A stretch of 64,000 nt of DNA from Lophium mytilinum (Eukaryota): contig MU004185.1 of assembly GCA_010093605.1 (NCBI GenBank), positions 22,534-86,533 of the forward strand, given 5' to 3'. The position numbers and the translations under genes are program-made. The stretch's first letter is position 1. The number at the start of each line of letters is the position of its first letter. The notes under the pieces were generated by a model. It had not been told where the DNA came from and ran no database searches. It saw only the letters and a list, made by a program, of their open reading frames with translations. This document shows, piece by piece, positions 1,380 to 31,659 of the stretch.

Positions 1380-1590
1380 AAGTACTACTATAAGTAGCCT
1401 GCCCTAGAGTAGAATATTAGGTAGGTTTAGTAGATAGAGAAGAAGTAGTAGAATAGATACTACTATAGGTAGACTGCTATAGAGAAGTATATTATATAGG
1501 TTGCGTAGGTTAGATAGATAGAGAAGAAATAGTAGAATAGGTACTACTATAAGTAGACTACTGCGGAGAAGTATATTATATAAATTAAGT
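1380..1590. repeat. Short tandem duplication (84-bp period, plus a more diverged 75-bp-offset copy) within a RIP relic
   Basis: Motif tactactata recurs at 1383, 1458 and 1542. 1421-1504 and 1505-1588 are near-identical. Offsets are multiples of 3, consistent with a former coding repeat. Confidence 0.7.
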
Positions 1591-1864
1591 AGAGGTAGAA
1601 GGTAATAATTCTTCTATTAAGACGGGTTCTACTTAAGTTTATTAGAACCTAACTATAAATACTAGAAGATTATAAAAGATATACTAATTATAAGTTATAT
1701 AATAGTTTCCTCTAAAGGCTTTTAAGGTGCAATTAGTTATTAAAAGGGCGTGGGCGCAGGGCGGGTAGGATAAGGGGCCCTAATATTTATACTAGAAAGA
1801 CCTCTAGGGTTTTTAAAGATAATTAGAAATAGATCTAGAATAGAAGTAGAAGTAGGCTTACTAG

Positions 1865-2679
1865 NNNNNNNNNNNNNNNNNNNNNNNNNNNNNNNNNNNN
1901 NNNNNNNNNNNNNNNNNNNNNNNNNNNNNNNNNNNNNNNNNNNNNNNNNNNNNNNNNNNNNNNNNNNNNNNNNNNNNNNNNNNNNNNNNNNNNNNNNNNN
2001 NNNNNNNNNNNNNNNNNNNNNNNNNNNNNNNNNNNNNNNNNNNNNNNNNNNNNNNNNNNNNNNNNNNNNNNNNNNNNNNNNNNNNNNNNNNNNNNNNNNN
2101 NNNNNNNNNNNNNNNNNNNNNNNNNNNNNNNNNNNNNNNNNNNNNNNNNNNNNNNNNNNNNNNNNNNNNNNNNNNNNNNNNNNNNNNNNNNNNNNNNNNN
2201 NNNNNNNNNNNNNNNNNNNNNNNNNNNNNNNNNNNNNNNNNNNNNNNNNNNNNNNNNNNNNNNNNNNNNNNNNNNNNNNNNNNNNNNNNNNNNNNNNNNN
2301 NNNNNNNNNNNNNNNNNNNNNNNNNNNNNNNNNNNNNNNNNNNNNNNNNNNNNNNNNNNNNNNNNNNNNNNNNNNNNNNNNNNNNNNNNNNNNNNNNNNN
2401 NNNNNNNNNNNNNNNNNNNNNNNNNNNNNNNNNNNNNNNNNNNNNNNNNNNNNNNNNNNNNNNNNNNNNNNNNNNNNNNNNNNNNNNNNNNNNNNNNNNN
2501 NNNNNNNNNNNNNNNNNNNNNNNNNNNNNNNNNNNNNNNNNNNNNNNNNNNNNNNNNNNNNNNNNNNNNNNNNNNNNNNNNNNNNNNNNNNNNNNNNNNN
2601 NNNNNNNNNNNNNNNNNNNNNNNNNNNNNNNNNNNNNNNNNNNNNNNNNNNNNNNNNNNNNNNNNNNNNNNNNNNNNNN
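1865..2679. other. Assembly gap (N run)
   Basis: Run of n characters. Confidence 1.
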
Positions 2680-3049
2680 ATATATAATTCTTTATATATT
2701 TCTTCTATACTATATTATAGTAGTTATATATAGTAGTAGTTATACTAATTTTTAAGCGCGAGGCTATTCTTACGCTAAACCCTTTAAGTAATTTCTATTC
2801 TATGCCTATACACTCTATAGCCTCTCTATATCTACCTTAAGCTACTACTATAGCTTATAAATTAAATTAAAGTTAATAGAATACTATTATATTATATTTT
2901 AAGTATTATTCTTTATATATATACTCTATTTTATATTATAGTAGTTAAATGCAGCGGTGCAAGGTTATACTGCATGCAATTCTTAAAGATTAATTTTCTC
3001 TATATTAAACTTACTTCTCCCTATCTAACTCTAACCCTCTAGCCCCTAT

Positions 3050-6000
3050 AATAGAAAGCTAAATACTAGGCGCTATTAGTAAGTTAGGCTTATAAATTCC
3101 CCCCTTAGTAAACTTAGGCGTTTTTCTTAGCTTTCTCCGCGCACCTAATCTATTAGGCTTACTTAGTATACTATCTATAGTTTTACTACTATATAATTAA
3201 TACCCCTTTATACTTTAGCTATATTCTTTAACTATAGGTAGTATTTCTAATACTAAGTTTCTAATTAAGAAAGTAGTATTAGTAGCTTCTATTTCTCCCT
3301 ATCTTTAATACTTATTTAAAAGCTTATAGTATCTATAGTTTAATAGATTATAAGTAAACTAAAAATCTTTACTTATTATTCTACTTAGATACTAATTTAG
3401 TCTTTAAAACCCTATTATAACTACTAGTTATTACTATACTTAGCTAGAATTCTATTAATTTCTATCTAGATATTACTAAGTATATAGGTAGAGTATATAG
3501 CTTAGGCGCTTTATCTTTCTTTATATATATCTACTAGGGACTTATTAGTATTAAGGTACTACTAGTACTCTAGAAATTTAATATATTTAATTATATTAGC
3601 TAGCTCTTAGTTCTATAGGGTTTCTAATAATATCTAAAGAATAGGCTATATAGTAGGGTTAATAAAAGACGCCTTTAATACTTACTAGAATAAGTTAAAA
3701 AATAGTAGCTTTTTCTTATAGACTTTATTAACTCTAATAATTCTAAACTATATATAGATACTAGAGGCATCTTATATACTAGAGTATAGTACTTATTAGT
3801 AGAGCTAATCTAGTATATAGCTTTTAAATAAAAGTAGAGTTATAATAATAATATTTCTAGACTATTCTTATCTTAGACTATATTTTCTAACCTAAGGGCT
3901 AGAATATATAGTAATCTAAGAGTTAGATATCTATAGCTAGAGCTAATAGTTTTTAATATTATAACTAGCGCTACTTATATTATAATAGCTAATATATAGC
4001 TCTATTTTACCCTATTCTTTCTAGTTATTATTAAAGATATTCTAAAATTCTCTAACCTAGTTAGCTCTTAATAAGAAAGGAATAATAATTAGCGTATTTT
4101 CTAATACTAGTAGAATATAAGTAATAATCTCTTATAGCTTATATATATACTATAATAGATAATATAATTTACTACTACTACTTTCTAGGTACTAAAGCCC
4201 TTAAAAGTATCTTTATATAGATATCTTCTATTATAGGTTAGGCCGTTAGCTCTATAAATCTCTAGGCTTGCCCGGGACCTTATAACCTTAGTATAGTAGT
4301 TTTTAAATATAGCGTTTACCTAGTATATAACTAGTATTTCTATAGTTTTTCTAAGGCCCTATTTATCTCTATTAAACCCGCCTTATATATTACTATACTA
4401 AAGTAGTATCTAGATAATTACTAATACTTAGTAGTAGTAAAGATAGCGTTTTAAGCCTAGTAATAGGATTATCTCTAGATATATCTTAGAAGAGAGCTTA
4501 AATAACATGTATATCTTTATCTATAGCTTCTTTATTATATACTCTATAGTAGTAGCCTATATAGTTCTCTCTTAAACTACTTATCTTATATTAAACCTCT
4601 TAACCTCTATATATCTAATTTCTAGCTTACTAGATTTTATCTTAAAATATTATATAGTATATTATATATCTAAATACTAATTAGTATATTTAAATAGTAC
4701 TAATCTTTATTTATATAGTAGTTTCTAGCTTATACTTATTTTTTTTTAAATATAGGTAAAGTTATATACTCTTATATAAACTATACTACCTAGCTAAATA
4801 ATTCTCTTATTTCTTATATATTCTATAACTATTCTACCTAAACTATAGTAGAAACTATAGTTTAAAAGACTATAATAATATAACTAAACTAGACTAAACT
4901 AGATTTTTACTCTATCTATAGAAGTTATAGTAGAGCTCTAGATATTATATAATATCTAAATTAGATATAGTACTTCTAGGTAAGCTATCTTTTACTATAA
5001 GATCTAGTAGTATTATATAAGTGCCTCTATCTAGCTCTAGTCTAGTTAAAGTAGAGAGAGATTTAGTACTCTACTATATAATATCTTTAGGTAGATTAAA
5101 TAGCTATAGGTAAACTTTTTACCTTATTTACTATCTTAGGAAAGGGGCTTCTATTATTAGATAAGGGCGGGCTAGAGTTATAGTAACTATATACGTATTC
5201 TATAGTATAGTAAGCTTAATTTTTATTACTTATATACTTTATAGTATAATAAAGTTAATTAGTATTATAGTTATAACCTACTAAAAGGCTATTATTAGCT
5301 TAAGCTTCTTCTACTTTAATTACTCTATTAAGGGAGGCTAGTAGATTTTTAGCTGCTATAGTAATAGAGTTAATAGGTAGTAGAGATATAATAGAATAGG
5401 CTAAATAGAGTACTGCTAGAGGTATTAGTATAGAGGGGGCTTATATAGTTAGTATAGTTATAAAAGTATACTAAAGAGTCTATAGTATTTTAATCTTATT
5501 CTCTAAAATAGTAAGGCGCATATTATATTTATACTTATTCTTAGCTATCTAAGTAAGGTTAGCTATAAGGTATTTAGTAATCTTTTCTTACTCTATAGAC
5601 TACTTATTAGCTTAAATATAGTTCTTTTACTAGGCCTTAATATCTATATTAAGAAAAGTAATTATCTCTTTATAAGTATAAAGTTTATTTTTATATTCTT
5701 CTAGTTTAGTTTTAATATTAAGTAGGTGTTTAAGTTTCTTATATATAGCTTCTAACTTATTATTCTTCTTATTATATTTATCTTTAAGAACTTTAATCTT
5801 ATTTTAAAGGTTGCGCTGCACTTTCTAATTATTCTTATATATTTACTAGAGAATCTTAGTTATAGCTTAGTAACTTCTAAGAATATAAAAGAAGTAGATA
5901 GAATTAGCTTAGACTTATATAAGAAAGTTTTAAGAGTCTATAATCTTAATTAAGCTATTAAACTATTTATTACTAGGTAGAAGTAAATAGTCTAGAAATT

Positions 6001-6350
6001 TAGTAATATTATTAATAGTATTAAGAAATATACCCGGATTATAGCCCTAGCTAAAAGTATAGTACTTAATAATAGAGCTATAGACTATTAAATCTAGAGT
6101 ATATATAGAATTATTAATATTATTATCTTTAATAGTATCTTTATCTTAAGTAAGCTAATTCTCTTTCTCTTAAATAGGCTACTAGATATAGTCTATATAG
6201 ATTATCTAGATAGACTATTAAGTATCTATATAGATTATTTAGGTAGACTATTAAATATCTCTCTTAGTTAGCTTTTAAAGAGGCGCGCTCTTTAAAGTCT
6301 TATAAAAAGATTTAGAGAGCGCGCGGGACTATATATAGAATAGTAGAAAG
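3050..6350 (-). pseudogene. RIP-destroyed gene relic(s), partly coiled-coil-like, family unknown
   Basis: Minus-strand frames read as protein interrupted only by TAA/TAG (expected from CAA/CAG/TGG), e.g. KVQRNL*NKIKVLKDKYNKKNNKLEAIYKKLKHLLNIKTKLEEYKNKL near 5690-5820. Boundaries approximate. Confidence 0.5.
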
Positions 6351-7343
6351 TAGCTAAATAGTTATAAACTACTATATCTAGAGCGTTTAGGTTCTTTATT
6401 AGTAGAGGCTTTAGTATCTAGTAGAGGCGGTAAATTATTTATTATAAAGAGTATAGTAATAGTATTTAGTAAGGTAAGATAGTATAGCTATATACTCTTT
6501 AGTATTATATATATAGTTATATAGATATACTTACTAAGCTATTAAATAGCTTAGTAAATAGAAATTAAGGTTTAAAATATAAAGGTTAAAGTAGTAATAG
6601 TATAAAGAATTAGTACTAGTTAAAGTATTAGATATAACCTAATATTATAGTTATAGTATAGAGGAGCTTAGTATATAAGGTAACTAGATTAAATTTAAAA
6701 GGTTATATAAGAAATAGAAAGAAAGGCTTCTAGAAAAAAACTATATATATAGAGGAGAAAAGTATATAGGCGCTAGGCGGGCTAGTATATAGATAGCGCT
6801 AGGTAATATAATAGATATAGAAATAGAAGGCTAGTAATAGATAAATATATAACTAGAGAATAGAGTATAATCTATTATAATTATATATATTAAAAATATA
6901 TTATAATAGAAGTTATATTATAGCTATAATAAATATTACTTAAAACTTCTTTTATAAATAGCTTTTAAGCTAGTACTATATAGTTCTAGCTTTAGAATAT
7001 TCTTATTAAAGGTACTAGATACTTACTATTCTAGATACTACTAGAATCTACTTTATAATTATTAGTAAGTATACTATATAACTTATCTTCTATATTTTTC
7101 TTATCTAGCTTCTATTATAATATAGCTACTATTATCTATACTTTTACCTACTAGACTAGTATATAAATTTATAGTAGTCTAAGTATTAGTATCTAATATT
7201 AAGGTAAATAGCTTATCTAGTAAGAAAGGAAATAAATATTCTTACGGGGTAGGTAATAATAGTTAATTTACTTAACTACTTCTATAGTCTATACTACTCT
7301 TAGAGTTATCTTAAGCTAGATAACCCTTATTAGTATTTTAATA

Positions 7344-7811
7344 TCTAATCTATATTAACTTCTTATTATAGCTATACTATAAGGTAGCTATAGATTTTAA
7401 TCTTATAGTATTTAGAAAGCGTTTATAAAAGGCCTTATAGACCTTATTCTAGGCGGGCGTTATACCTATTTCTCTTAGATTCTCTATACGCTTTTACTAA
7501 TACTCTAATAGAAACGCCTTCTTAGCTTCTTTCTAGAGCTTATATTAGGCGTAGTTCTTAATATTATAATAGTATACTTATACGCGCTAGGCTTTTATCT
7601 TACTAATCTTTAAACTATTATTCTAGTTAACTTTTCCTTTTACTCTAAAGTTAGTATTAATTTTACTAGTAACTTAGTACTTTTATATAATTATAAGATA
7701 GTCTTTATAGGGCTTATAAATCTTAAATATAAATAGGTAGTATATAACTTTCTTATTAAGAAGAGTTATACTATTATTATTAAAATTAGGCTCTAGTAGA
7801 ATATAGGTAAA
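7344..7811 (-). pseudogene. RIP-destroyed paralog of the Myb/SANT-like gene at 10515-12433 (conserved core; relic probably extends further)
   Basis: Translation FTYILLEPNF...YLIII*KY*VTSKIN...KVN*NNSLKISKIKA*RV*VY...YA*YKL*KEAKKAFLLEY**KR...A*NKVYKAFYKRFLNTIR...IR aligns colinearly with FPYIFLEPDL...RLVITRKHRVTGTIN...KVDWEDQKCISKMNTWRAQNY...YARY...EEKAFLRDYWRK...LWESVLVAFVKQFPKTTR...IR. Confidence 0.9.
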
Positions 7812-8549
7812 GTTATAGTCTATAATATTATTTACTTTTATCTTAACTATTCCCTCTCTATTCTTTCTATTCTTCTTACTTTAGCTTTAATAGTTAGAAT
7901 CTAATTTAGATAGTTCTCTACTATTTTTATCTACTTTATAATTATAGTAAATAAATTAAGTATCTAAGAAGGTATTTTAGACGCTATATATTAAATTATT
8001 TAGGCTAGATTTCTAGCTATAGTCTTAGTAGCTATTATAGTAGCTATTTTACTACGTTAGGCTATTAGTATTTTAAATACTACCTGTATTAATACTTTAA
8101 CTATCTAGCTTATTCTACGGGATAACTATATTATTTATAATTTTAGCACCTCTTTTAATAGTAAATATTATAGCCCTAGCCCTACTACTATTAGAGTATA
8201 GAGATCTAGACTTAACTAGAGATAGTAGCTTAATATAGTTACTAGCTCTAGGCGCGGATCTAGTTAAGGCTAGTATATCTAATATTATATTTTATAGTTA
8301 GGCTTATATACCTATCTTTATATTTAGCGGCTTAATAGCTAGAATACCTCTATAACTTACCTCTTAGGTACTATTCTAGAAAGTAGAGTATTTAGGTTAG
8401 CTTATTCTTTTATAGTCTCTACTATAGAACCTATATCTTTTCTATTAGTATATATAGGTTAGGTAGTTTTATTTATAGACTAAGTTATAGAGGAATTTAA
8501 AAAACTACTTTTTATTATAGTAGAGCTATTACTAATAGTTATATAGATA

Positions 8550-10390
8550 AGATATTATTTCCGGGATCTCTCTATATAATCTAGATATAGTTATCTCTTA
8601 ATTAAAAGAAAATATACTAGATAGGGCACTTCTTATAGTAGTATTACGTATTTAAGATAGAGTATAAATTAGGGTATAATAGTATATATAGCTATTTATA
8701 TTCTAAGGTATAATATTAAAGTTAATATAATAAAATCTAGACTTTTTCTTAACTACTTTACTACTTACTATCTAAGGCGCTTTTTATAGAGGTGTTAATT
8801 AACTAAATTAAAGCCTAGATTAGAGTATATTAGTCTATTTAGGCTTTTATACCCCGGAATAAGATCTTATAGTTAATATTATAGAATCTAGACTTCTTTT
8901 TAACTATCTAGCTACTTACTAGCTAGGGTACTTCTTATAGTAGCGTTAGATAATTAAAATAACTTCTAAGTTATAGTAAATAAATACTTTTAGCTATTCT
9001 ATCTCTTAAATATAATATAAATATTAATATAATAGAATCTAGACTATATCTTAATAGACTAGCTACTAGCTCTCTAGAATACTTCTTATAGTAGTATTAA
9101 GTAGATAGAATAGAGTATAGTTAGAGGTAGATTAATATACTAGAAAGTTAGTACTCTAGAATATAAAGTTAAGGTTAAAGCTATAGAATCTAGATAACCT
9201 TTTATATAACTAGGTACTAGCTATCTAGATTACTTTTTATAGTTATATAATATAGATATATATAGTAGTTTACCTATAAGATATATATATACTTAGAATT
9301 ATAACCTTATATTATACTAGATTAAGCTACTCTAAGTATTTAAAGTCTATAGTACTATAGAGAATCCTCTACTTATATTTAATAATTAAATTAAATACTA
9401 TTCTATATAAAATATAATAATAAAATATAAGTATAAGGTAATCTTTAAGAGTATTTAGGGTACCTTAAAAGGCTATTTATACTCTAGGTATAATTTAAAG
9501 ACTAGTATTATAGAAACTAAACTACCTTTTAATATAGCTAATACTTATAGATAGAGCTACTTCTAATAGTAGTATTAGGCGGGTAATACTAAAAAACTAG
9601 TAATATTATATTTATTTCTATCTACTAGACTATAGCTTTTATACTCTTAAAGATATAAATATTTAGATAATATATATTAAGTAACCTCTTAGCTATCTAG
9701 TATTCTACTAGCTATAGTGCTTCTAATAATAGTATTAAGTAACTAAAACTTAAGTAGAAGTAGTAAGGTATATTTACCTAGATACTTTTATACTCTAGAT
9801 ATAATTAGAAGTTTAGTATAGTAGATATTAGACTACTTTTTAATATAGCTACTATCTACTATATAGGGTCCTCTTTATAGTAGTATTAGACTAGTAAAAT
9901 TCTAATTCTAGTAATAGAGTTTTTAAGTCTAAATAATTTTATACTCTAGATATAATTTAAAGGTTAGTATAGTAGAAATTAGACTACCTTTTAATATAGC
10001 TACTATCTACTAGGTAGAGTTCTTCTTAAGGCGGTATCTAATAAGTAAGATTTAATCTAGAGTAGTAAGGTTTACCTACCTAGGTACTTTTATACTCTAG
10101 GTATAGTTTAAATACTAGCGTAGTAGAAATCTAACTACCTTTTAATATATCTATTAACTATAAGCTAGGGTACTCCTTATAGTAGCGTTAAATAAGTAAG
10201 ATCTAAGTAGAAGGTATAAGGTTTACCTATCTAGGTACTTTTACGCTCTAGATAAGATTTAAATGCTAGCGTAGTAGATTTTAGACTACCTTTTAGTATA
10301 GTAAAGACCTACTAGCTAAGGCGCTTCTTACGGCGGCATTAGACGAGCAAGATGTTAGCGGGAGTAGTAAGATCTATGTGTGTCTAGAGA
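8550..10390. repeat. Diverged tandem array, ~151-bp period, ~11-12 units
   Basis: Anchor actctag/gctctag at 9792, 9943, 10094 and 10245, and aatctaga at 8734, 8885, 9036 and 9187 (151-bp spacing). Each unit also carries a cttcttatagtagtatt / cttcttacggcggcatt motif. Confidence 0.9.
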
Positions 10391-10514: not shown

Positions 10515-12433
10515 TTATAACTCCTCTTCTTCTACCTCATCCACCCTCTCCCCACCGATCTTCTGCTTCTTGGCAGGCCTTGTCTGCCTCGTCTTCCGAG
10601 CCCGGGCCCCGGGGCCAGCCACCACGTCCTCAACATCAGCCTCGGCGTCCTCGTTCTTCCGCTTCTTGCCACCACCCGTCGTCTCACCCTGTCTAATCCT
10701 TGTCACCTCTGCGTCCCTGCTACACCAGGATGATATGGACGGCTGCTTCCTCGTCGTTTTTGGGAACTGTTTCACAAATGCCACCAAAACGCTCTCCCAA
10801 AGCGCCTTTGTGCCTGCATCACCCCGCTTCTTCATCTCTTTGCGCCAATAATCGCGCAAGAAGGCCTTCTCTTCGTCGGCGAACTCCACTCGCGGTGCGT
10901 AGCGCGCGTAGCCTTCCACGCCTCGGCGGTAGTTCTGCGCCCTCCAAGTGTTCATCTTGGAGATGCACTTCTGGTCCTCCCAATCCACCTTGCTTGGGTA
11001 TAGGAGACTCTTGTTGATAGTACCGGTGACCCTGTGCTTGCGAGTGATGACTAGACGGTCGTCGGCTTGTTGCCCAAGCTCGTACTTGAACGCAATGTGG
11101 AGTCCATTGTTGTCAAGGAATGGTCTACCTTCGGCGTCTAGGTCTGGTTCGAGGAATATGTAGGGGAACTTCTTCTTGGTGGACACCTTCTCTTCCGCGG
11201 CGTTGATGGACGCATCGTCTTTGATCTCTCCTTCGCTGTCGTCTCGGTCCTCGCCCATCTCCGCGGCTGCTTCACTGACAACGGGCTGTTTCTGCTGAAC
11301 CTCGGCTTCTGCGAGTTTCGGCGCATCTCTCTTGCGATTTGCGCGTGGCTTCTCGGTCCGCTTTTTCTCGGTATTTCGAGCATATGGATGGTAAGGGAGA
11401 GGATTGGCAGCAGGACGGGCGGCCACTTTCCTAGTCCTGAGCTGTCGTCCTTCGACTTGCAGATCTTGGGTTGTTTGGGTTTGTGGTCCTAAGTGGGCTG
11501 GATCTGGTGCTTGGGAAGGTCCTTTCGCGGTGGCTGGGTTGTCGATGTCTACGGGATTCGCGGCGGTGCCATCGCCGGTAGCCTCTAGACGTGCCGCAGC
11601 TCTAGCTCGGGCAGCCTCAATCTTCGCAGCATGAGCGGCAAGCCTCGCTTGTTTCAACTCATCAATAGTCGCCTCCACGTTGTGCTGGCTGTATTGGAAG
11701 CCTGCGCCCATGCCCAGGAGCTTCATGGCTTCACCAATATCTGATTGCCCGTTCTTCGCGGCTGCCTTTGAGTCGAACGCTTTTCCCAACTCAACTTGCT
11801 TCGACTTGGGTATGATCAATCCGCCGACTGATTTGTATCCAGTGTGAAGTGCGGCGCGAATGCGGTGTTTCTTGGTGGGTTTCTCGCTGATGAGGTATGG
11901 AGTATCTTCGTAAGTGCCAGTAACGACTCCGTTGGCATCGACTATGACTCCTTCTCCGAGAACGGCGTCATCGAATTGGCCGGATACCGCAAGGATCAGC
12001 TTCGCTTCGTCCCATGCCTCGGTCGCGGAGAGAGGGCTTCCCAGAGAGATGATTCGCGTCTTCGAATACGGAATGAAGGTGACACCATCGAGAATATCTT
12101 CGATGTGGTCTGCTAGGACGAAGGTTGAAGTGCGTCCGTTATGGGTCGCTCGTAGGAAAGCCGGTGATGGATGAAGCAGCTCAGACGGATTCACTGAGGG
12201 CGGAGGCGGTTGAGGTGCGGGCATTCCCATCGCTGCTCCTGGCGCAGTCTAGTACGTGTCAGCAGTCTTCATTACGGTGGCAAGGGCCTCTTTCGACAGC
12301 TACTTACAACTTGTGCTCCGTTCGCAGCAGCGCGTGTCGACTTCGCAGTGTCCTCGTTGAGCTTTTGTTGCAAGTTCGTAGTCTTGGCAAGCCTGGACGC
12401 TCGTCTCTGAGCCGCTGTGCTAGGGAGTGCCAT
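10515..12433 (-). CDS. Basic/acidic nuclear-type protein with putative Myb/SANT-like helical domain; 2 exons (12433-12308, 12248-10515)
   Basis: ORF 571 aa extends 5' via GTAAGT...CTGAC...TAG intron 12307-12249 to ATG MALPST at 12433. C-terminal DWED..ISKMNTWR...F.DEEKAFL...W..V..AF...FP...R pattern is Myb/HTH-like. K/R-rich NLS-like stretches. Confidence 0.75.
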
Positions 12434-14100: not shown

Positions 14101-14709
14101 AGGGCCGAAAGAGCGTCGAAGAATCTGCGCATACGATTTCCAAGTCCCCTTAGCAAAGCCCCTCACCTGGATCCAATCTCCATTTCAGCAAGGCGGGGCT
14201 CAAGGCTTTGAGTACCGTAGTTTTCTAGGAGATATCTTCGCATTCTAGCTGGCGAATGGAGTACCCAGTGCGATGATGCGCCGACGCGCCGACGCCCCAG
14301 ACAGTTGTAGGCCGACGGTGGTTATGTAGCTGTAGTAAAACGCTGGACCCGCAGTGTTCGGTGCGCTGGCGAAGGAGATGGCGCCGGATGGATAGGTTAT
14401 GGCAGTACAGCTGTAAAGCCCCAACTCGCGCTGGAATTTCAAGCCGGTTCGTAGATGTAATTCGCTAAAAGAAAGCATGGTGTTAACAGATGAGGGAGGT
14501 GTTAAGGCTGGAGAGAGTTGAGATGGAAACAAGCTTTGTGAACTAGACCCAATATAGACTAGCCTCACCATCGTGGGAGCGGAGCTATCCCGGGCCCAGT
14601 TATTCTGTCCGACCTTGGTCGCCTGTTGCCGTCTAACCTACAACGTGCTCCGTCTGTTACACCTGCAATAAACACGTCTCCGGAGTGCGACACCTTGACA
14701 ACGAGCGAA

Positions 14710-16641
14710 ATGCCCACCGGAATGCTCTCCCAGCTCGTCCCTGGAGAAACTATATCGCAGCGCGTAGCGCGCCGACATAGGGCGGAACGCGGCGAGAAGA
14801 AGAAGCGCCCAGAAGAGCATGGTCAGGAGGAACTGGAAGACACAGCTAGACTCAAGGATCGCAACTCCCGACGCCCTCACTCGGATAGTGAGGACGCCCT
14901 GACACCACACGAATCATTTGCCACCACCGAAGTATATGCCAACAGTCCTGTCCAGGCACCATCCACATCGCAGGCGAAGAAACACAAGAAACCCAGTGGT
15001 CTTACCAAAAAGCAGCGACGAAAGGCGGAGAAGGACAGGCGCAAATCAGAGGCAAAGAAAGTAATGTTAGGGGAGCGAAAAGTGCGCGAGCTGGAGAAGC
15101 GAAAAGAGCGCGAGCTGGAGAAGCTCGAGCGCGTTCGGAAGGAAGAAGCAGCCAGCCTTGCTCAAGACTCCATGTTGGGGTTCAAATGCACTGTTCTATC
15201 TTACGGCTCAAAGTATGGCTCTTTGGGTCCAGTGCCATCTCTCTCTTTCGACGTCTCTGACGTTGAGCTGCCCGACACCACATCACAACACGTTACTGAA
15301 TTCGGTGGAGCCGGCCTCAGAGACGCACTACTAAACTTCATCGTCTCGTACAAGGAGAACCGCAGTGTTTTCAGGGAAATGTATAAAGCTGCAGCGGCAA
15401 GGATTCAGAGCGCGGCGCTAGCCGCAGAGACAGCCAAGACGAGCTTTTCGATTGCGATTCAAGATACAATTGGAAGGCGTAGTAGCGTTGCTTTTGCGCA
15501 AAAGCTCGGAGAGAGACTCGAGGTGGAGGATGGGTGCGTAGTGACTATCGTGCACAGGGATCTCATGATTCTGGGCGGAAGGAAGAGAGTTCCATGCGTA
15601 TATTTCATGACCGCGAAGGGCTGCTATCGTGGGGACTGTTGTCCATTTTCCCACGACGCGCAGTACATTGAAGCAGCAAAAGACATGCTGTGCAAGAATT
15701 CCCTGGTCACAGGTGGTTGCAAGTACGGAAACTCTTGTGTCTTCTCCCACGACCTTAACCACGTCGCCCAGGAACATCAAGCGAGGCAACCCAGCTGGCG
15801 TCAAGCTGATGAGCAGATACCAACCGGAATCCCGAACACACTAGCATACAGTGCGACCCAGGCGCCATGGTCCAGAGAGCGGAAACCCAAAGAGGAAGAG
15901 GGTAAGGGGAACGAAGCCGAATTGCTCAATGCGAAGTCTCCTGCGAGCTGGTCAATGGATGGCATCTTCTGCGCCATTACGTCATATGGCTCCCACTTTG
16001 GTCCGCTGGCGAACTCTCCATCTCTCGGTTTCCCTGTCGATGACATCCTCGTATTCCCGACTGCCCTTGCAAAAGGCCTCAAAACAGGCATGTCCGGTTT
16101 AGTTCAGACTGCGGTGTGGGGGCGCGAGTACAATGTTCGACGGTTCGAAGGTATCTACCAGAAAGTTAAGGCAGTCGTCGAAAAAGAAGGCTTGAAAATG
16201 GTGTCTGGGACTATCTCCATTGCTCTCCGGGGTCAAGTCGGAAGGCAGACAAGTGTAGTCTTTGCGGAAAAACTTGGGGAGAGGTTGCGGGAGGATGGAT
16301 GTATCGTGAAAATTATGCACCGAGATATCGAGACATCATCTTCGCTGTACAGAAAGGGTACACTGACCACCAACTTTTACAAGAAGTTGAGATTACTGGA
16401 CAATAGAGATCATCAGATGGTCCTGAAAGTATCTTCGGATAACAGGAAGGCTTGCGATACGAGCGACGAATCCGATACGAGATCTTCATCCTCTGACGGC
16501 TCCGAGGACAAGCGCTCTGACGACGATGGACATGGGCGTTCGAAGTATCCCATGGATATGGACTTGGTATCCGACTTCGGGACGGGTGACGGAGGATGGG
16601 ACCAAGATGCGTGGTCACAGTATCGCAGAATAGTTCGTTGA
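14710..16641 (+). CDS. Putative RNA-binding protein: K/E/R-rich N-terminus, RapZ C-terminal-like domain, two CCCH zinc fingers, second RapZ C-terminal-like domain, acidic tail
   Basis: Long intronless ORF (first ATG 14710). Two C-x8-C-x5-C-x3-H fingers (CVYFMTAKGCYRGDCCPFSH; CKNSLVTGGCKYGNSCVFSH). Two internal repeats SYGSxxG...F.V.D...IA....GRxxSVxFAxKLGERL..DGC.V.I.HRD. Confidence 0.85.
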   Translation: MPTGMLSQLVPGETISQRVARRHRAERGEKKKRPEEHGQEELEDTARLKDRNSRRPHSDSEDALTPHESFATTEVYANSPVQAPSTSQAKKHKKPSGLTKKQRRKAEKDRRKSEAKKVMLGERKVRELEKRKERELEKLERVRKEEAASLAQDSMLGFKCTVLSYGSKYGSLGPVPSLSFDVSDVELPDTTSQHVTEFGGAGLRDALLNFIVSYKENRSVFREMYKAAAARIQSAALAAETAKTSFSIAIQDTIGRRSSVAFAQKLGERLEVEDGCVVTIVHRDLMILGGRKRVPCVYFMTAKGCYRGDCCPFSHDAQYIEAAKDMLCKNSLVTGGCKYGNSCVFSHDLNHVAQEHQARQPSWRQADEQIPTGIPNTLAYSATQAPWSRERKPKEEEGKGNEAELLNAKSPASWSMDGIFCAITSYGSHFGPLANSPSLGFPVDDILVFPTALAKGLKTGMSGLVQTAVWGREYNVRRFEGIYQKVKAVVEKEGLKMVSGTISIALRGQVGRQTSVVFAEKLGERLREDGCIVKIMHRDIETSSSLYRKGTLTTNFYKKLRLLDNRDHQMVLKVSSDNRKACDTSDESDTRSSSSDGSEDKRSDDDGHGRSKYPMDMDLVSDFGTGDGGWDQDAWSQYRRIVR

Positions 16642-17613: not shown

Positions 17614-18486
17614 ATGAACCAGTCGGGTAGTGACTTTCCCCGATCGGCAAGTAGTGATGAGATTCCTCATGCATGCAGCACTCGTCTTCCAGGACTCGGG
17701 TGTCTCAGTATCCAATGATGATGTTTAGCTCGAGAAAGGACCTGCACGAACAAGAATCAACCGCACATCGAAAACCTTGGCGCTTGCAAGGAAAAACTCC
17801 TGGCCGCCTTTCAGGCATTCGTCGAGCCTGTAGTGCTCGATGACTTTGCGGGCACTAGCAGACAAACCCGTTACTACCGCAATATGCTTCTTCGCCACAC
17901 AGGAATCGGCCAAAACTCAAAAGAAGTAGACCAAGTTGCTCGTGTACTACCTGTGCCTCGTGTACTACCTGTGCCTCGTGTACTACCTGTGCCTTCCGGG
18001 CTTGAACTTTTCAGTCGTTCTATCCGCGCTCGCGCTTTCGCTATGCGCGAGATTGAGGGCATGACCCCCAGATGGCTACGAAAGCAAAAATCCAAACGCG
18101 TAGATTGTATTGCCGAGGTTTTCATCCGAGAGATGCAGGCACTGATTTATGACAAAGCCGTGTCTGACATGAAGCAAGGCGACTTTGGTAAGCCTGTGTG
18201 GGCTGACCTCGAACAAGTTTATAGGGGATTTGGACCCGTTGTGGGCTGGCTAGGCGTGTTCTCCTCGGCATCGCTGCGGCCCTTGGAGACTGTCACAGAA
18301 GCCTGCGAGATTCCTGCAAGTGATCCCCAGTGCTACATATGCTTTGAGGATATGAAGAAGGGTACTCATCATGCACTTCAGACGTCGTTTTTTCACTTTT
18401 TCGGCGCCGAATGCTTAGCGAGTTGGTGCCGTAAGAGCCCAGCATGCCCTATGTGTATGGGACCCTTGAAAATGCTCTTGTGCTAA
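17614..18486 (+). CDS. RING-finger protein, degenerate (third Cys replaced by Phe); 5' structure uncertain, possibly pseudogene
   Basis: CYICFEDM...TSFFHFFGAECLASW...CPMC at the C-terminus. In-frame ATG at 17614 is separated from the main ORF by TGA TGA (17716-17721) unless an intron removes them. Confidence 0.6.
17941..17994 (+). repeat. Perfect 18-bp tandem repeat x3 (RVLPVP)3
   Basis: cgtgtactacctgtgcct repeated three times. Confidence 0.95.
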
Positions 18487-24215: not shown

Positions 24216-24593
24216 GAATGAAGCTGAAGACACGAGACATTGGGGGTATACAGGACAAGATAGCTCCTCCTATCAAATTTTTCCCATCCCTATTACATAT
24301 CACCTACACAGTCCTAGTTTTGATCGAGTAATTCGTTGATTCACCGTCTAATCACTCAGCCACGTTCATTGTCCACCCACTCCACCCACACAACAGAACA
24401 CAATGAGAGCATTCACGCAACAATTACCTAGATATATATTCGTGAAACCTTCCCTAAATTGAAGCTCAAAAAGCAACCCTTAAGAATCACAGACCACACC
24501 CCACCTTAACTCCCCAACCATTAGTTGTCTCCGTCACACCACCACCCACCAACCACATCTTTGGTCAACCACTCATCTTGTGGCCTGATTACC

Positions 24594-25175
24594 ATGTCTT
24601 CCACGATACCCCTCAACTCCACCGAGTTCATCGCCAACAGGCTTACCAATATCGATGCTACCAGCAATGTCGAAGTTCCGGATAAGTGCCCAATCTGTCA
24701 CGAGGACTTCAACGCGAGCCATCCCGCTGTCCAGATCACCAACATTCCGGATTGCACTCATATCTTCGGTCGAGGTTGCTTGATGTCTTGGCTTTCTTCC
24801 GGCAGGAACAATCAAAACACGTGCCCAATGTGTCGTCAGCGCTTGTATAGAGAGAGCGGGGATCACTTGGTACCGCGCATACCCATCCATCGTCAGTCGC
24901 TTCGCAATATCTTGGTGGGCTGGAGTACTCCGGCCGACACCATCGACCGTCTACTTCCCAATCGCGAGGAGCACGATGGGCAGGGTACCGAAGCCCTCAG
25001 TGATGATGCGGAGTTTGCTGGAGTCATTCGACATCTTGTGAGCAATAATGGGGAACGCGAGGGAGGTTTCGAGGCGCTTTTGCGCGGATTCGACGAGGCT
25101 ATGGCCCAAGCCGCAGGAAGAGCTGTGCGGGCGAGACAGGCGGGACAGGAGCATTATGAAGAGGACGACGAGTAG
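24594..25175 (+). CDS. RING-finger (C3HGC3-like) protein, intronless
   Basis: CPICHEDF...CTHIFGRGCLMSWL...TCPMCR. First ATG 24594. Confidence 0.9.
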   Translation: MSSTIPLNSTEFIANRLTNIDATSNVEVPDKCPICHEDFNASHPAVQITNIPDCTHIFGRGCLMSWLSSGRNNQNTCPMCRQRLYRESGDHLVPRIPIHRQSLRNILVGWSTPADTIDRLLPNREEHDGQGTEALSDDAEFAGVIRHLVSNNGEREGGFEALLRGFDEAMAQAAGRAVRARQAGQEHYEEDDE

Positions 25176-26123
25176 TTTGCATGAAGGCGAGCAGAATCAA
25201 GAAGTGGGGTCAGGGATGCTCCTCTCAGGGCCCGCAAGGTCGAGTCTGCACAATTGGTGATCAGATGGTGGAACCTACCTATGTTTTGCACGACCGTTTT
25301 GTGGCAGAGAGGGGCTTTGCATACGATGTGCCTGTTATTTGGAGCAGCTTGCAATGGTCAACTAGCCTCGTCTTTCTAGGCAGTGGACATTTTCTACGCA
25401 AGAAGCGATCAGGAATTCCTCATTTCAATTCCACTATCAAGGCAGGAAACAAAATTCCTTGGCCCAAAGCTTCTCGTCACCGTGCCTCCATGAGTTTCGT
25501 AGTATATCCATGGTCATTGAACGATCAACACCGGATTGCTGTCGACGGTGATAGAGAGATTATGTTTGGAAAGCTTCGCTAGCCATTACAGCCTCAGTAC
25601 GAGTAGAGCTGAATAAAGATGATTCACCAGTTGAAGACTACAGCCCATGTATATGTGACCACCCTCAGTGACTTGATAGAGACCCACGCTTAGCCCTATT
25701 GATACCACGGGTCTCTTGGCTGTGGTGTCTCGACGATTGTTCTGTGACTTGGTCGACCGTGAACATCATCTAAAAGTATCTGGACCCACCGATCATAGCA
25801 TTTATTAATGCTTTGCTCCGTACAAAAGGTTTTGGGAATGGTGCCTTTGAGTTACAGAGTGATTGCTGCGCATGGCCAAGGCAAGGACTATACTCCGGGT
25901 ACCACAGGAGGTCCAAATTTAGGGTGTCTCGCAATTCACCTTCGAGTCTACCCAAGCCGCTTTCACTATACATTCACCATCGGTTACGCTAGCGTCCATT
26001 TTCCCATGAATAAAACCCCAAGGGGGTTCTAAGTAGGCATCTAGACATCCATCATACCTGAATCAACCACTGTCCCCCAACACACCACACAACAACTCAA
26101 TACCATCTTATCATCACCTCATA

Positions 26124-27146
26124 ATGTCACCAACAATCCCCTCCGACGCCACCGAGTTCATTGCCAACAACCTTACCGCCATCGACGCCAGCCACGCAGA
26201 AGTCGAGTTGCTCGAGGATTGCCCAATCTGCCAAGAGCGTTTCAGCGAGAAAGATCCGCCAGTTCAAATCACCGACAGTGCCAATTGCAGCCACATCTTC
26301 GGCAAAGACTGCTTGAAGTCCTGGCTTTCCAGCGGTATGAACAACCAAAATACATGCCCCTTATGTCGGGCTAAGCTCTACGGCGTGACCGAGAGGTTTT
26401 CCTGGGCTCCGGACCACGGATGGGAGCGGATCGGTGCTGGAGGCATCAGGGGCACGTTCAGGGGGGCTGATTATGATGGTGTCACTGTTCTCAATACTCT
26501 TATTGCGAGGCTTCGCGAACGGCGGGCACCTTCTGCAATGAATACGATCCGCAATGACGAAGAATTGGAACAGGTCTCTGGCGAGCTTGGCCCGAGTCCT
26601 AGATGGGAACAGGGCCCTGAACTAGAGGAAGCTGGCAGTATAGGACAGCATGAAGGAGATGAGAGCAGAGAGCTTGAGGGAGAACGGAGCCTTCTAGGAT
26701 TCTGGGAAAGAACTCTCTCATTGAATCGAACACCGCGTCGAGCCCCATTGGGTCGAATGCCGCGTCGAGGTCCGTTTCCTAGGGTCGACAACTCTGCATT
26801 CCTTGCCTCTCGGTGTCAGCGGGAGGAAGACCTTCGACAAGAGCGCGGCCAAGGTCAACAGGTAGATGATGAGATCCAATTGGGATTCGCAGCAGCAGTC
26901 CCGGCGCCGCTCGATACGCCCAGCCCTGAGTTGTCCATGGGGAACCGGCTTGCTTCAGGATCTACGTCACCCTCTACTTCACGCTCGGCTTCACGTTCGG
27001 CTTCAGGATTTGCTGCCGACTCCGTTCCACGTTCAGCTTCACGCTCTACTCCACGCTCGGCTTCGCGATCTGCAGCTTCGGGATTTGCTGCTGGCTCTAC
27101 TCCACAATTTGCTCCCCGCTCTGATCCAGAGTCCAAGTCACTCTAG
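26124..27146 (+). CDS. RING-finger (C3HGC3-like) protein with disordered, SRSA-repeat C-terminus; intronless
   Basis: CPICQERF...CSHIFGKDCLKSWL...TCPLCR. Low-complexity SRSASRSASGFAA repeats near the C-terminus. Confidence 0.9.
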   Translation: MSPTIPSDATEFIANNLTAIDASHAEVELLEDCPICQERFSEKDPPVQITDSANCSHIFGKDCLKSWLSSGMNNQNTCPLCRAKLYGVTERFSWAPDHGWERIGAGGIRGTFRGADYDGVTVLNTLIARLRERRAPSAMNTIRNDEELEQVSGELGPSPRWEQGPELEEAGSIGQHEGDESRELEGERSLLGFWERTLSLNRTPRRAPLGRMPRRGPFPRVDNSAFLASRCQREEDLRQERGQGQQVDDEIQLGFAAAVPAPLDTPSPELSMGNRLASGSTSPSTSRSASRSASGFAADSVPRSASRSTPRSASRSAASGFAAGSTPQFAPRSDPESKSL

Positions 27147-28877: not shown

Positions 28878-31659
28878 TCATGGCTGGCCGTCTAGGAGTG
28901 CAACAGGACTTTGGGTAGTTCTTGTCAAATGCTTCGGCAGCAATGAAGCGCTGATACGTAAACCCTTTGCTAGATGGTTCATGACTATATCAAATCAGTA
29001 TTCTGATCAATGGCTTCCGGGCTTATATGTTAAGTGACTTACGAGGCCAAACCACTACTCGCTCAAACATCTGCGCTTGCAAATGATACAGATTCTCCGC
29101 AATCTCCAGCACTTTGTCCATATCTTCCTCAAAACCTCCTCTTTGTACATTGATGTCTTGAGAGCCAAGTAGCTCCACCACGGCTTGAATCAACTGGATA
29201 TCTTCCGGGTCCAAGTGGTGTCGCATTTGCATCGTTGTAGGCTCATCCGAAGTCGTGTTGATATCTTGCTCATGAGCCTCGAGGGCGCCGCGCGTTGCAG
29301 CCACATACGATAGCCAACCACATACAATCTGTGTGCAGTGGAAAGCAGTAATCGCAGAGATGACAGGGACATCAAACGCCTCGCCGCCCTCGGACCACCA
29401 TGGAGCCATTTCATGGGAGAGTCTGAGCGCGGATATTGCGTAAGATGCGACTTCGCGACATTCAGTGTATGGTTGACGTGCACATAATCCGCAAGCTTCG
29501 GCCTGCTCCGCTGCAGCAAGGTTTTCGTTGGGAGGTGTTAGAGAAGCGTTGTCGCTTCCAACGGAGCCGTCGAATATGCTTTTAAAGATTGCGTTTGTGC
29601 GCTGATAGTTCCGACTGTGGAGTGCATCCTTAGCGAGAGAGATATCAACTTGGAGAGCGAGTTTAGTGTGGTCAAATATGGGAAGGCAACCGAGTAGAAC
29701 TTTGTCGCCGAGGGTGAGATCCGTTTTGCGCTTCGGAAGACGTTGCCAAATCTCTTGCCAGGTGTCGAGTGCGTATTTGAAATCTCTCAGCTGTTTCGCT
29801 TCTTGTGGAGACGTTTCTTCGTGCCCTTGTTGCTGTTTCCTCCAGGCCCAAACGCTTTCGTTGAGTGCGAGGATCAGGACCAGACAACCGAACTCGCTTA
29901 CGTTGGAAATCAGATCATGATTCAGCCTGGCCGTATCCATTGGAGATTCCATCGCAGGCTGTTGAACCGTATGCGCGGCTATCATTGCTATTGCCATCTT
30001 AACCGTACGGTCAACTGACCCTAAGGCGTGCATGTCAATCGAAGTATCCGGTGGTGTATCGATTTTCGGCGGAAACAGAGATGATAACGTGCTTTGAAGA
30101 GGGCAGACATCAGCTGCTTCAATGCCCAGTGCTTTCCATTGCTCCTCGGTATCGGCCTCCCATAGTGCTTCCCGACAAGGCAGCTCCAGCTCAATATGGG
30201 AGTGGCCAATGAAGGGCTGGGCTGGGTTTATCAACGTCAATCCGGCACTGCAGACAAAGTAGGCGCAGAAATAGGTGCGTTTTCTTTCCTCGAACAGGGC
30301 CCATGTATGCCAATCTGAGCTTACAGCATCTTCCGGGTGTAGTGACGGTGGCATCGTAACGTTCAATTTACCTAGCCCTGCATCTTGCACCAAAGAAGCA
30401 AGGCAGCAAATGTGTTGGACAGCGACCTGCTCGAGCACTTGGTTTCCTTCGCAGAAGCAGAATTGGATGTATTGAATAAAAGCTTGGATAATGGAAACAT
30501 CTGGCGGGGGCATATCTGAGGATTCGAATGATGACCGCTTGAGGTACTTCCGCACCTCGGATCCGGTCTCTTCGAAGAACCTTTGCGCGAGGATCGGACA
30601 AAGGCTGTATGCTGCACCGAGCGCAATGATGGAATACAGAAGGCAACGGGGTAGTTTTCTCCCATAGCGGCTATTGAACGGCGCTGCGCTGGGATCGAGT
30701 CGAGGGTTTGAAATACAGTCTTGGAGATTTGTCGTACTGAGGTCTGCTGAAAAGAGCCGGAACGTCGGCAGGTGCAGTAGCGGGATATTTGGGTAGGAGT
30801 GAGTTTTGTAGGCGGCTACCAAACTCGCAATATCAATATTGGTAAGGATTTCATCAACGCTGCAGGTTCCGTTCTGGAATGTCCTAGGAACCGAGGGTGA
30901 GGAGAGGTTGGCCCTGACTATATCTGGCGAAGGTCGGGTCCAAGCTTGAAATCCAAATCCAAATGGGACGCCTAAGGATTGGGTATGTCGGTCAGAGAGC
31001 ATCTCGTCAAGAGGAGCCGGAAACTCGAATGTCGGGAATGGTCCGTCAAGCGGTCTGTCGGCCTCGAACCCAAGACGGGAGCTTACAGACGGGCTCGATA
31101 CCCGATGTCTACGTATCAGCGTGTTGCTTTGAGTATAGTTCATTCCTTCGTTTTCGTCAATGGGACCCTCATGCGTCGTCGAGCTTAGAAAGTCTCTGAC
31201 GTCGGGCCATAGCCCTGGGAATGCTTCCGCTACGGCCAGTGCGAGACCAATGTCGCGCGTGCCTCGAGTCGCGGTCACCAAGACGTCGTCGTCATTAGAG
31301 TCGGCGTTCTCCCGGTCTTGGTCCAGCTCTTGCACGTCCTCGCTGTCAAAGTTAATGTTGTCTGATTCATGGTACACCTGTTGAATGGCGTCTGGGGACG
31401 CGTCGTCTAGTCTCGGTCGTTTTGGGCTGGTTGGTGAGTCTGCGGTGGGTGGAGATGCACGCCTGTCCACATTGTGCACCGTCCTACAGTGGCGCTGTAG
31501 GCCATCCATTCGCGTGAACTTGCGATGACAGACTGTGCAGGACATGGCCTTGGGGCGCACGTGAGAAATTTCGTGTCGGCGGAGGTGATCCGGTCGGGCA
31601 AAGGTCCGGCTGCATGTCCTGCATTGGGACGGCTGACTAGAAGCGGGAGAATCTTGCAT
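28878..31659 (-). CDS. C2H2 zinc-finger transcription factor with fungal-specific TF (Fungal_trans-like) domain; last intron ~29042-28985
   Basis: CRTCSRTFARPDHLRRHEISH and CTVCHRKFTRMDGLQRHCRTVH. PLLHLPTF, EERKRT, LPC.EALW motifs. Terminal exon LMNHLAKGLR...GQP*. Alternative upstream ATG at 31719. Confidence 0.92.

What the first reader, a model, noticed from the sequence alone, without database searches (positions are those of the whole stretch)
14710..16641. Fungal protein with two RapZ C-terminal-like domains sandwiching tandem CCCH zinc fingers
Seen: two internal repeats (~15181-15564 and ~15964-16329) flank two exact C-x8-C-x5-C-x3-H fingers. Each repeat follows the order of the bacterial RapZ/YvcJ C-terminal domain: SYGSKYG ~ SFGFKHG; FDVSDVELP ~ FDVRFLPNP; IAIQDTIGRRSSVAFAQKL ~ VAIGCTGGKHRSVYIAEQL; HRDL ~ HRTL. 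Established: the RapZ CTD binds the sRNAs GlmZ/GlmY and glucosamine-6-phosphate and helps target GlmZ to RNase E, and tandem CCCH fingers are eukaryotic RNA-binding modules. Both copies lack the N-terminal P-loop domain and have lost the GCTGG-HRS Cys/His. Inference: a chimeric RNA adaptor, possibly metabolite-sensing, in a domain architecture I do not know from any characterised protein.
Basis: partly seen in the sequence, partly recalled or inferred. Interest (0 to 1): 0.8.

Follow-up and report, generated by a model that had tools for sequence, protein, structure and literature searches.

The report
Fungal RapZ-domain pair with zinc fingers
A fungal gene encodes two copies of the C-terminal domain of the bacterial RNA adaptor RapZ on either side of two RNA-binding zinc fingers, a combination not found in any other protein reached here, but both copies have lost the phosphate-binding pocket that RapZ needs to work.

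Summary

None of the 206 proteins fetched combines RapZ_C with CCCH. The nearest relatives are unstudied fungal RapZ_C proteins. One of them (Mytilinidion) also has two tandem copies, but no fingers.

The metabolite-sensor reading is weakened. The RapZ pocket residues (C247, G249, H252, R253 and R184, invariant in 38 of 38 bacterial RapZ rows) are replaced in both copies. Mutating several of these residues abolishes E. coli RapZ activity.

Most likely this is a lineage-specific RNA-binding protein. The fingers would bind RNA, and the degenerate RapZ-fold pair would act as a scaffold or backbone-binding platform. This function is inferred. Expression is unverified and no orthologue was found. 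The scan has seen stand-alone eukaryotic RapZ_C genes before, on other DNA. Verdict: new variant of a known kind, moderate interest.

The parts
14710..16641 (+). Whole ORF, 643 aa plus stop, no intron needed (protein P0001)
   Evidence: The stop-to-stop frame runs 14563-16641. RIP-type dinucleotide indices are normal here.
14710..15168 (+). N-terminal Lys/Arg/Glu-rich low-complexity region (aa 1-153, pI 10.0, 40 K+R). It contains a 24-bp tandem repeat at 15074-15124. No domain found.
   Evidence: Only a sub-threshold Nop53 match (E 0.59).
15181..15567 (+). RapZ C-terminal-type domain, copy 1 (aa 158-286). Pocket equivalents: D252 T253 I254 G255 R256 R257 S258. K168 sits at the RapZ K170 position.
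15595..15654 (+). CCCH zinc finger 1, C-x8-C-x5-C-x3-H (aa 296-315). It follows a GGRKRVP basic stretch at the end of copy 1.
15691..15750 (+). CCCH zinc finger 2, C-x8-C-x5-C-x3-H (aa 328-347), 12 residues after finger 1
15751..15960 (+). Linker (aa 348-417) with no domain match
15961..16335 (+). RapZ C-terminal-type domain, copy 2 (aa 418-542). Pocket equivalents: G508 Q509 V510 G511 R512 Q513 T514. H429 sits at the RapZ K170 position.
16336..16638 (+). C-terminal tail (aa 543-643). It starts with a short basic stretch and then becomes Asp/Ser-rich. No domain found.

Best explanation
This is a real, lineage-specific fungal gene. Its product is laid out as: basic disordered N-terminus, RapZ-CTD-fold domain, two CCCH zinc fingers, about 70 residues of linker, a second RapZ-CTD-fold domain, acidic tail. 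The anatomy and the fold of both repeats are shown. The rest is inferred. The two canonical CCCH fingers are the RNA-reading part and bind single-stranded RNA. The two RapZ-fold domains have lost the RapZ phosphate/GlcN6P pocket, so they do not sense a sugar phosphate. They probably serve as a paired structural platform, possibly packing against each other in one chain as the RapZ CTD homodimer does. That platform would position the fingers, touch RNA by surface charge (copy 2 and the basic stretches after each copy), or recruit partner proteins. The Lys/Arg-rich N-terminus and the Asp/Ser-rich tail suggest a nuclear or nucleolar location. The tandem RapZ-fold arrangement is older than this gene, because a Mytilinidion protein has it without fingers. 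The insertion of the CCCH pair between the copies is therefore the new feature.
For: The ORF is intact at 643 aa. It is not affected by the RIP-like decay that has destroyed the block 4.4 kb upstream.

Both repeats match PF22740 and the E. coli RapZ CTD by profile. Of 54 P-loop-bearing RapZ queries, 50 hit copy 1 and 21 hit copy 2 by tblastn (best E 1.3e-8 and 3.7e-6).

CCCH: all eight zinc ligands are present with canonical spacing. Three Pfam CCCH families score above cutoff. The weak PDB sequence matches are all CCCH RNA-binding proteins: TTP, CPSF30, Roquin.

Pocket loss: R184, N188, C247, G249, H252 and R253 are each invariant in 38 of 38 P-loop-bearing RapZ rows. They read S, L, D, I, R, S in copy 1 and D, V, G, V, Q, T in copy 2. 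H190A, G249W, R253A, K170A and C247A/S abolish RapZ activity in E. coli (passages of PMC9841335).

Tandem precedent: P0003 (Mytilinidion resinicola) has two RapZ_C stretches and no CCCH. It groups with both window copies and P0012 in one clade with support 95/91.
Against: There is no expression evidence and no orthologue. The protein is a singleton in its 90% cluster, with 1 member on 1 contig. No binding of RNA, zinc or a ligand was tested.

Copy 1 is not basic (pI 6.1, net charge -1), unlike what an RNA-backbone platform would suggest. D182, which the E. coli CTD needs for self-association (passage of PMC7073468), is kept in copy 1 (D181) but is Pro in copy 2. That does not favour a RapZ-like pairing of the two copies.

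My AF2 alignments contained bacterial RapZ rows, so those models lean towards the RapZ fold.

The word-index searches scored only the 8000 candidates sharing most words. Only 150 of 299 phmmer hits were listed. Relatives with the same architecture could therefore have been missed.
Confidence: 0.5

Rival explanations
1. One reading: a RapZ-like, metabolite-sensing RNA adaptor. The RapZ_C copies would bind structured RNA and a sugar phosphate such as GlcN6P in the RapZ pocket and hand the RNA to a nuclease.
For: The fold and family of both copies are RapZ CTD. In E. coli the isolated CTD binds sRNA and GlcN6P on its own (passages of PMC7073468). The fusion to CCCH fingers places the domain in an RNA context. 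K168 and R256 keep the charge of RapZ K170 and K251 in copy 1.
Against: The pocket positions C247, G249, H252, R253 and H190 are replaced in both copies. T248 is replaced in copy 2 only and kept in copy 1. R184 is also replaced in both. Single substitutions at several of these positions abolish RapZ function (PMC9841335 passages). Other fungal members (P0124, P0151) still keep Cys and His-Arg, so the loss is specific to this subclade. RNase E and GlmZ/GlmY are bacterial (recalled).
Confidence: 0.1
2. The RapZ-fold domains have nothing to do with RNA. They are protein-protein or oligomerisation modules, or they bind an unrelated ligand at a new site. The CCCH pair alone determines the targets.
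For: The RNA/phosphate pocket is lost. Copy 1 is near-neutral. The domain is a mobile module found with unrelated partners: a flavin reductase domain in P0151, APH-type kinases in bacterial clusters, and the earlier scan notes on sugar-kinase fusions (unchecked leads).
Against: Nothing speaks directly against it. It overlaps with the best explanation, differing only in whether the pair touches RNA. Basic stretches directly follow both copies (GGRKR; YRKG...YKKLR), at the place where E. coli RapZ carries its basic RNA-binding tail (passage of PMC7073468).
Confidence: 0.25
3. A young or decaying orphan ORF with no function. It would be a chance-preserved fusion in a fast-evolving region next to a RIP-degraded repeat block.
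For: It is a singleton with no orthologue in the databases searched. The neighbouring ORFs mostly have no Pfam family. A RIP-like AT-rich block ends about 4.4 kb upstream. The conserved pocket is degenerate.
Against: The frame is open for 692 codons at about 53% GC. All eight zinc ligands are intact. Both copies keep the fold-core residues that are invariant in all 45 rows (G, S, V and the His of HRD) and model with high confidence, although they are only 37% identical. That pattern points to long purifying selection on the fold after duplication. The dinucleotide indices show no RIP in the gene.
Confidence: 0.15

Closest known systems
E. coli RapZ (YhbJ), RNase adaptor; PDB 5O5S (CTD), 5O5O/5O5Q, 8B0I/8B0J
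   Different: There is no N-terminal P-loop domain. There are two CTD copies in one chain rather than one. The pocket residues are replaced in both copies. CCCH fingers are inserted between the copies. The host is eukaryotic and lacks RNase E and GlmZ (recalled). The NCBIfam RapZ score is 29.6 against a cutoff of 244.
Unstudied fungal RapZ_C proteins: Mytilinidion resinicola BDZ99DRAFT_259644 (P0003), Cladophialophora carrionii CLCR_04576 (P0151), P0124, P0012
   Same: Eukaryotic, no P-loop domain, PF22740. P0003 also has two tandem copies and falls in the same clade as both window copies (95/91). P0012 is 46% identical to copy 1 over 79 aligned residues.
   Different: None has a CCCH finger: 0 of the 59 other RapZ_C-bearing proteins fetched. 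P0151 carries a flavin reductase domain instead. P0124 and P0151 keep the Cys and His-Arg of the pocket.
Tandem CCCH RNA-binding proteins (TTP/TIS11 family, CPSF30)
   Same: Two C-x8-C-x5-C-x3-H fingers. Finger 2 has the C-x-Y-G-x-x-C-x-F-x-H pattern. There are weak sequence matches to TTP (1M9O, E 0.0088) and to CPSF30 across both fingers (6FUW_C, E 0.0094).
   Different: The fingers are 12 residues apart and lack the YKTEL-type lead-in. The TIS11 family has an 18-residue spacing and that lead-in (both recalled). The fingers here are flanked by RapZ-fold domains.
6-phosphofructokinase, fructose-6-phosphate-binding subdomain
   Different: 3-11% identity. Only a subdomain-level resemblance, with no family membership.

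Membership tests
RapZ (RNase adaptor; NCBIfam NF003828) | N-terminal P-loop kinase-like domain (PF03668, Walker A) | tested here: not met
   No PF03668 match at E up to 10. NF003828 is matched only at model positions 155-278. For the N-terminal 150 aa of 54 RapZ queries, the best tblastn E in the whole window is 0.13, and none of the 8 best HSPs lies near the gene.
RapZ (RNase adaptor; NCBIfam NF003828) | Whole-protein score at or above the curated equivalog cutoff (244 bits) | tested here: not met
   29.6 bits
RapZ (RNase adaptor; NCBIfam NF003828) | Phosphate/malonate pocket H190, T248, G249, H252, R253, plus C247 and K170, needed for GlmZ binding and cleavage | tested here: not met
   Copy 1 has D189, T253, I254, R257, S258, D252, K168. 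Copy 2 has P450, Q509, V510, Q513, T514, G508, H429. The residue roles come from passages of PMC9841335.
RapZ (RNase adaptor; NCBIfam NF003828) | CTD homodimer within a domain-swapped tetramer | not testable with these tools
D182, needed for CTD self-association (PMC7073468 passage), is kept in copy 1 and is Pro in copy 2.
RapZ (RNase adaptor; NCBIfam NF003828) | Binds GlmY/GlmZ and RNase E | not testable with these tools
   These partners are bacterial (recalled). No assay was possible.
Pfam PF22740 (RapZ C-terminal domain) | Profile match at or above the gathering score (27 bits) | tested here: met
   Whole protein 56.2 bits. Copy 1 alone 37.8 bits. Copy 2 alone 25.9 bits, just under the cutoff on its own.
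Pfam PF22740 (RapZ C-terminal domain) | RapZ CTD fold | tested here: met
CCCH zinc finger (PF00642 / PF18044) | C-x8-C-x5-C-x3-H ligand spacing and a profile score above cutoff | tested here: met
   Two exact motifs. PF18044 scores 36.9 against 24.6 and PF00642 scores 30.6 against 20.5, with two stretches each.
TTP/TIS11 tandem zinc finger family | 18-residue inter-finger spacing and a (R/K)YKTEL lead-in before each finger (features recalled, not from a call) | tested here: not met
   There are 12 residues between H315 and C328. The lead-ins are RKRVP and AAKDML.

The most novel reading that the evidence does not exclude
The protein is a single-chain eukaryotic counterpart of the RapZ CTD dimer. 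The two RapZ-fold copies would pack in cis into a pseudo-dimer that clamps an RNA helix by shape, while the inserted CCCH pair reads adjacent single-stranded RNA. That would make a new kind of bipartite recogniser of structured RNA. It would also be a 'Rosetta-stone' fusion showing that the unstudied eukaryotic RapZ_C family acts on RNA rather than on sugar phosphates.
Probability: 0.15. Interest if true: 0.7.

Novelty: new variant of a known kind. Interest (0 to 1): 0.5.

Why it matters
The RapZ C-terminal domain has been studied only in E. coli-type RapZ. Stand-alone copies in fungi and protists have no known function. I found no paper on them, and earlier scan notes say the same. A natural fusion to canonical RNA-binding fingers is the first contextual hint linking the eukaryotic branch of the family to RNA. 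The two-copy layout also offers a natural single-chain version of the CTD dimer, which is the minimal RNA-binding unit of RapZ. The clean loss of the pocket in both copies, while the fold is kept, makes this protein a useful contrast for asking what the fold does without the pocket. The weight of the finding is limited because it is one gene in one genome with no expression data.

Tried and rejected
1. Pairing of copy 1 with copy 2 (complex prediction). Score 0.00 in both runs, verdict 'no answer', my alignments were not used and the controls were not run. No conclusion either way.

2. Expression. No RNA holder was listed. The single run listed held next to none of the words.

3. Word-index homologue searches with the whole protein and with aa 154-547. 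Only the protein itself was returned among 8000 scored candidates.

4. Metagenome scans. The core query gave 101 pattern matches and none was confirmed. The query aa 240-350 gave three loci (L001-L003) that match finger 2 only, with no RapZ_C HSP better than E 0.019.

5. The window's own genome could not be searched for paralogues. Within the window there is no further RapZ_C copy.

6. Cluster look-up for the names and sources of P0012, P0124 and P0167 was not available. The organisms of these three proteins are therefore unknown to me.

7. TTP/TIS11 membership was rejected on spacing and lead-in (the family features are recalled).

8. A hidden upstream P-loop exon was rejected.

9. Recent transfer from bacteria was rejected as the simple reading. 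The fungal copies lie apart from the clade of 33 bacterial CTDs plus P0167 (97/93). The tree is midpoint-rooted with long branches, so it says nothing firm about origin.

Full report
**What is there**

The window carries one uninterrupted ORF at 14710-16641 on the + strand, 643 aa. The stop-to-stop frame is 692 codons long, in DNA of about 53% GC. Pfam finds the RapZ C-terminal domain PF22740 with E 4.9e-15 (56.2 bits, cutoff 27) in two stretches. It also finds several CCCH zinc-finger families above their cutoffs: PF18044 at 36.9 against 24.6, and PF00642 at 30.6 against 20.5.

Scanned separately, copy 1 scores 37.8 bits over profile positions 2-120 of 121. Copy 2 scores 25.9 bits over positions 39-121, which is just under the cutoff on its own. 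A profile built here from the family covers aa 158-286 and aa 418-542. That profile includes the two window copies, so their own scores are by construction. The two copies are 37% identical over 132 residues, E 2e-25. A regular-expression scan finds exactly two C-x8-C-x5-C-x3-H motifs, at aa 296-315 and 328-347.

**Are the repeats really RapZ CTDs?**

- A five-row profile of the fungal repeats hits the E. coli RapZ CTD crystal chain 5O5S at E 1.4e-5 over chain residues 8-129 of 131.
- Of 54 P-loop-bearing RapZ proteins used as tblastn queries against the window, 50 hit copy 1 and 21 hit copy 2, with best E 1.3e-8 and 3.7e-6.
- AlphaFold2 models of each copy, from 45-row alignments, have mean pLDDT 84.6 and 87.6.
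- Foldseek against the PDB gives 17 and 15 hits at E <= 1e-3. Every one of those shown is a RapZ chain. 5O5S gives TMq/TMt of 0.67/0.76 and 0.71/0.78.
- My alignments contained bacterial RapZ rows, so these models lean towards that fold. The ESM Atlas's own model of this protein was made without them. It still aligns aa 154-290 to RapZ_C clusters at TM-by-query 0.78-0.80, and aa 374-547 at TM-by-row 0.67-0.68 for the two short RapZ_C-only clusters.

**What is missing**

There is no P-loop domain. No PF03668 match appears at E up to 10. The NCBIfam RapZ equivalog scores 29.6 bits against a cutoff of 244 and is matched only at model positions 155-278. The N-terminal halves of the 54 RapZ queries find nothing better than E 0.13 anywhere in the window.

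The RapZ pocket is also gone. Passages of the cryo-EM paper PMC9841335 and of PMC5737377 give the following. H190, T248, G249, H252 and R253, with C247 close by, form the sulphate/malonate pocket. That pocket lies against the GlmZ backbone and is the proposed GlcN6P site. H190A, G249W, R253A, K170A, T248D and C247A/S abolish activity.

In alignment A2, the 38 P-loop-bearing rows have D182, R184, N188, P189, C247, G249, G250, H252, R253, S254, V255 and A256 in 38 of 38 rows.

| RapZ position | Copy 1 | Copy 2 |
|---|---|---|
| K170 | K168 (kept) | H429 |
| D182 | D181 (kept) | P442 |
| R184 | S183 | D444 |
| N188 | L187 | V448 |
| P189 | P188 (kept) | F449 |
| H190 | D189 | P450 |
| C247 | D252 | G508 |
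| T248 | T253 (kept) | Q509 |
| G249 | I254 | V510 |
| H252 | R257 | Q513 |
| R253 | S258 | T514 |

Two other fungal members, P0124 and P0151, still carry Cys and His-Arg. The loss is therefore a feature of this subclade, not of eukaryotic members in general.

**Relatives and uniqueness**

- The word-index search returned only the protein itself, both with the whole protein and with aa 154-547. It is recorded as 1 member on 1 contig.
- Full phmmer of aa 154-547 against 1.84 billion representatives gave 299 proteins at E <= 0.001, of which 150 were listed. By my profile, 4 of these 150 carry a RapZ_C domain: the protein itself, P0003, P0012 and P0124. The other 146 match through the finger region only. 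I Pfam-scanned 20 of the 149 non-self rows: 3 had PF22740 and 17 had CCCH and other domains only. The 149 unlisted hits were not seen.
- A profile search among longer proteins gave 58 hits. These were the protein itself, P0003 (named by its source as an uncharacterised protein of Mytilinidion resinicola), P0151 (Cladophialophora carrionii, RapZ_C plus a flavin reductase domain), P0167 (RapZ_C only, source unnamed), and 54 with PF03668 plus PF22740. Apart from the query itself, none lists a CCCH family.
- Over all 206 proteins fetched, 60 have a RapZ_C hit, and only the window's protein also has a CCCH motif.
- Two metagenome scans found no relative beyond finger-only matches.
- Literature searches listed no paper whose title or abstract start deals with a eukaryotic RapZ_C protein. 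I saw listings only.

**Family tree**

The tree has 41 domain rows: 8 non-P-loop pieces and 33 bacterial CTDs. Five bacterial rows of A2 (P0200, P0202, P0204, P0205, P0206) were dropped unintentionally by a name filter in my script. The tree puts copy 1, copy 2, both P0003 domains and P0012 in one clade with support 95/91, unresolved inside. Copy 1 pairs with P0012 at 82/66. The bacterial CTDs plus P0167 form a clade at 97/93. The root is at the midpoint and several branches are long, so no direction of transfer can be read from it. P0003 shows that two tandem RapZ-fold domains occur without fingers. The inserted CCCH pair is what sets the window's gene apart.

**Context**

The neighbours include a fungal-specific transcription factor domain, a TRI12/MFS pump and oxidoreductases, which places the window in a fungus. 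Positions 1 to about 10,300 are 17-26% GC. Their dinucleotide indices are TpA/ApT 1.8 and (CpA+TpG)/(ApC+GpT) 0.04-0.14. The gene and the rest of the window give 0.6-0.8 and 1.2. By the usual thresholds (recalled), that is the signature of repeat-induced point mutation in the block, and its absence in the gene. The ORFs next to the gene have no Pfam family, except a RING finger.

**How it most likely works**

The following is shown:
- the domain order;
- the fold of both repeats;
- intact zinc ligands;
- absence of the P-loop domain and of the RapZ pocket.

The following is inferred:
- The CCCH pair is the RNA-binding element. Finger 2 has the C-x-Y-G-x-x-C-x-F-x-H pattern, and the weak PDB sequence matches are to TTP, CPSF30 and Roquin fingers.
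- The RapZ-fold pair is a structural or charge-based platform rather than a sugar-phosphate sensor.
- In E. coli the CTD dimer is the minimal RNA-binding unit, and a basic tail after the domain contributes to binding (passages). Here basic stretches follow both copies, and the roughly 130 residues between the copies would allow them to pair in cis.
- Two points count against this. Copy 1 is near-neutral at pI 6.1. The Asp that the E. coli CTD needs for self-association is Pro in copy 2.
- The basic N-terminus (pI 10) and the Asp/Ser-rich tail suggest a nuclear or nucleolar protein.

**Verdict**

The domain assignment and the apparent novelty of the architecture are supported. Earlier notes of this scan (unchecked leads) had already met stand-alone eukaryotic RapZ_C genes and bacterial kinase fusions on other DNA, so the domain outside RapZ is not new. 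The fusion with CCCH fingers between two copies is new. I class it as a new variant of a known kind, of moderate interest. It is limited by being a single unverified gene in one genome.

Noticed in passing
window 1-10300: AT-rich block (17-26% GC) with strongly RIP-like dinucleotide indices: TpA/ApT 1.8 and (CpA+TpG)/(ApC+GpT) 0.04-0.14. It contains 84-bp, 151-bp and 302-bp tandem arrays and a run of 815 N at 1865-2679, which produces false six-frame 'ORFs' there.
   Followed up: partly
window 24525-25175 (+) and 26037-27146 (+); also 17884-18486 (+): Two neighbouring RING-H2 finger ORFs are paralogues (53% identity over 107 aa, E 4e-36). A third, more distant RING ORF lies just downstream of the finding. 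That one carries a perfect 18-bp x 3.1 tandem repeat at 17939-17994.
   Followed up: partly
window 29023-56823: A run of ORFs typical of a fungal secondary-metabolite-type neighbourhood: a Fungal_trans transcription factor (29023-31800, -), FAD_binding_4 oxidase (34855-36570, -), ADH_N (48477-49211, -), an FMO-like monooxygenase (51750-52841, -) and a TRI12/MFS efflux pump (56203-56823, -). No core synthase was seen among the ORFs scanned.
   Followed up: no
window 10515-12248 (-): A 577-codon open frame directly at the edge of the AT-rich block with no Pfam family. It may be another lineage-specific gene.
   Followed up: no
P0003 (Mytilinidion resinicola protein, 343 aa): Its first RapZ_C domain starts at profile position 38, so the public gene model looks truncated at the 5' end. 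Each of its two domains is followed by a similar tail of about 55 residues, suggesting a larger repeat unit.
   Followed up: no
P0167 (325 aa, source unnamed): A RapZ_C domain with a fully bacterial-type GCTGG-x-HRSV motif follows a Cys-rich N-terminal region of about 200 residues with no P-loop domain. It groups with the bacterial CTDs in the tree.
   Followed up: no
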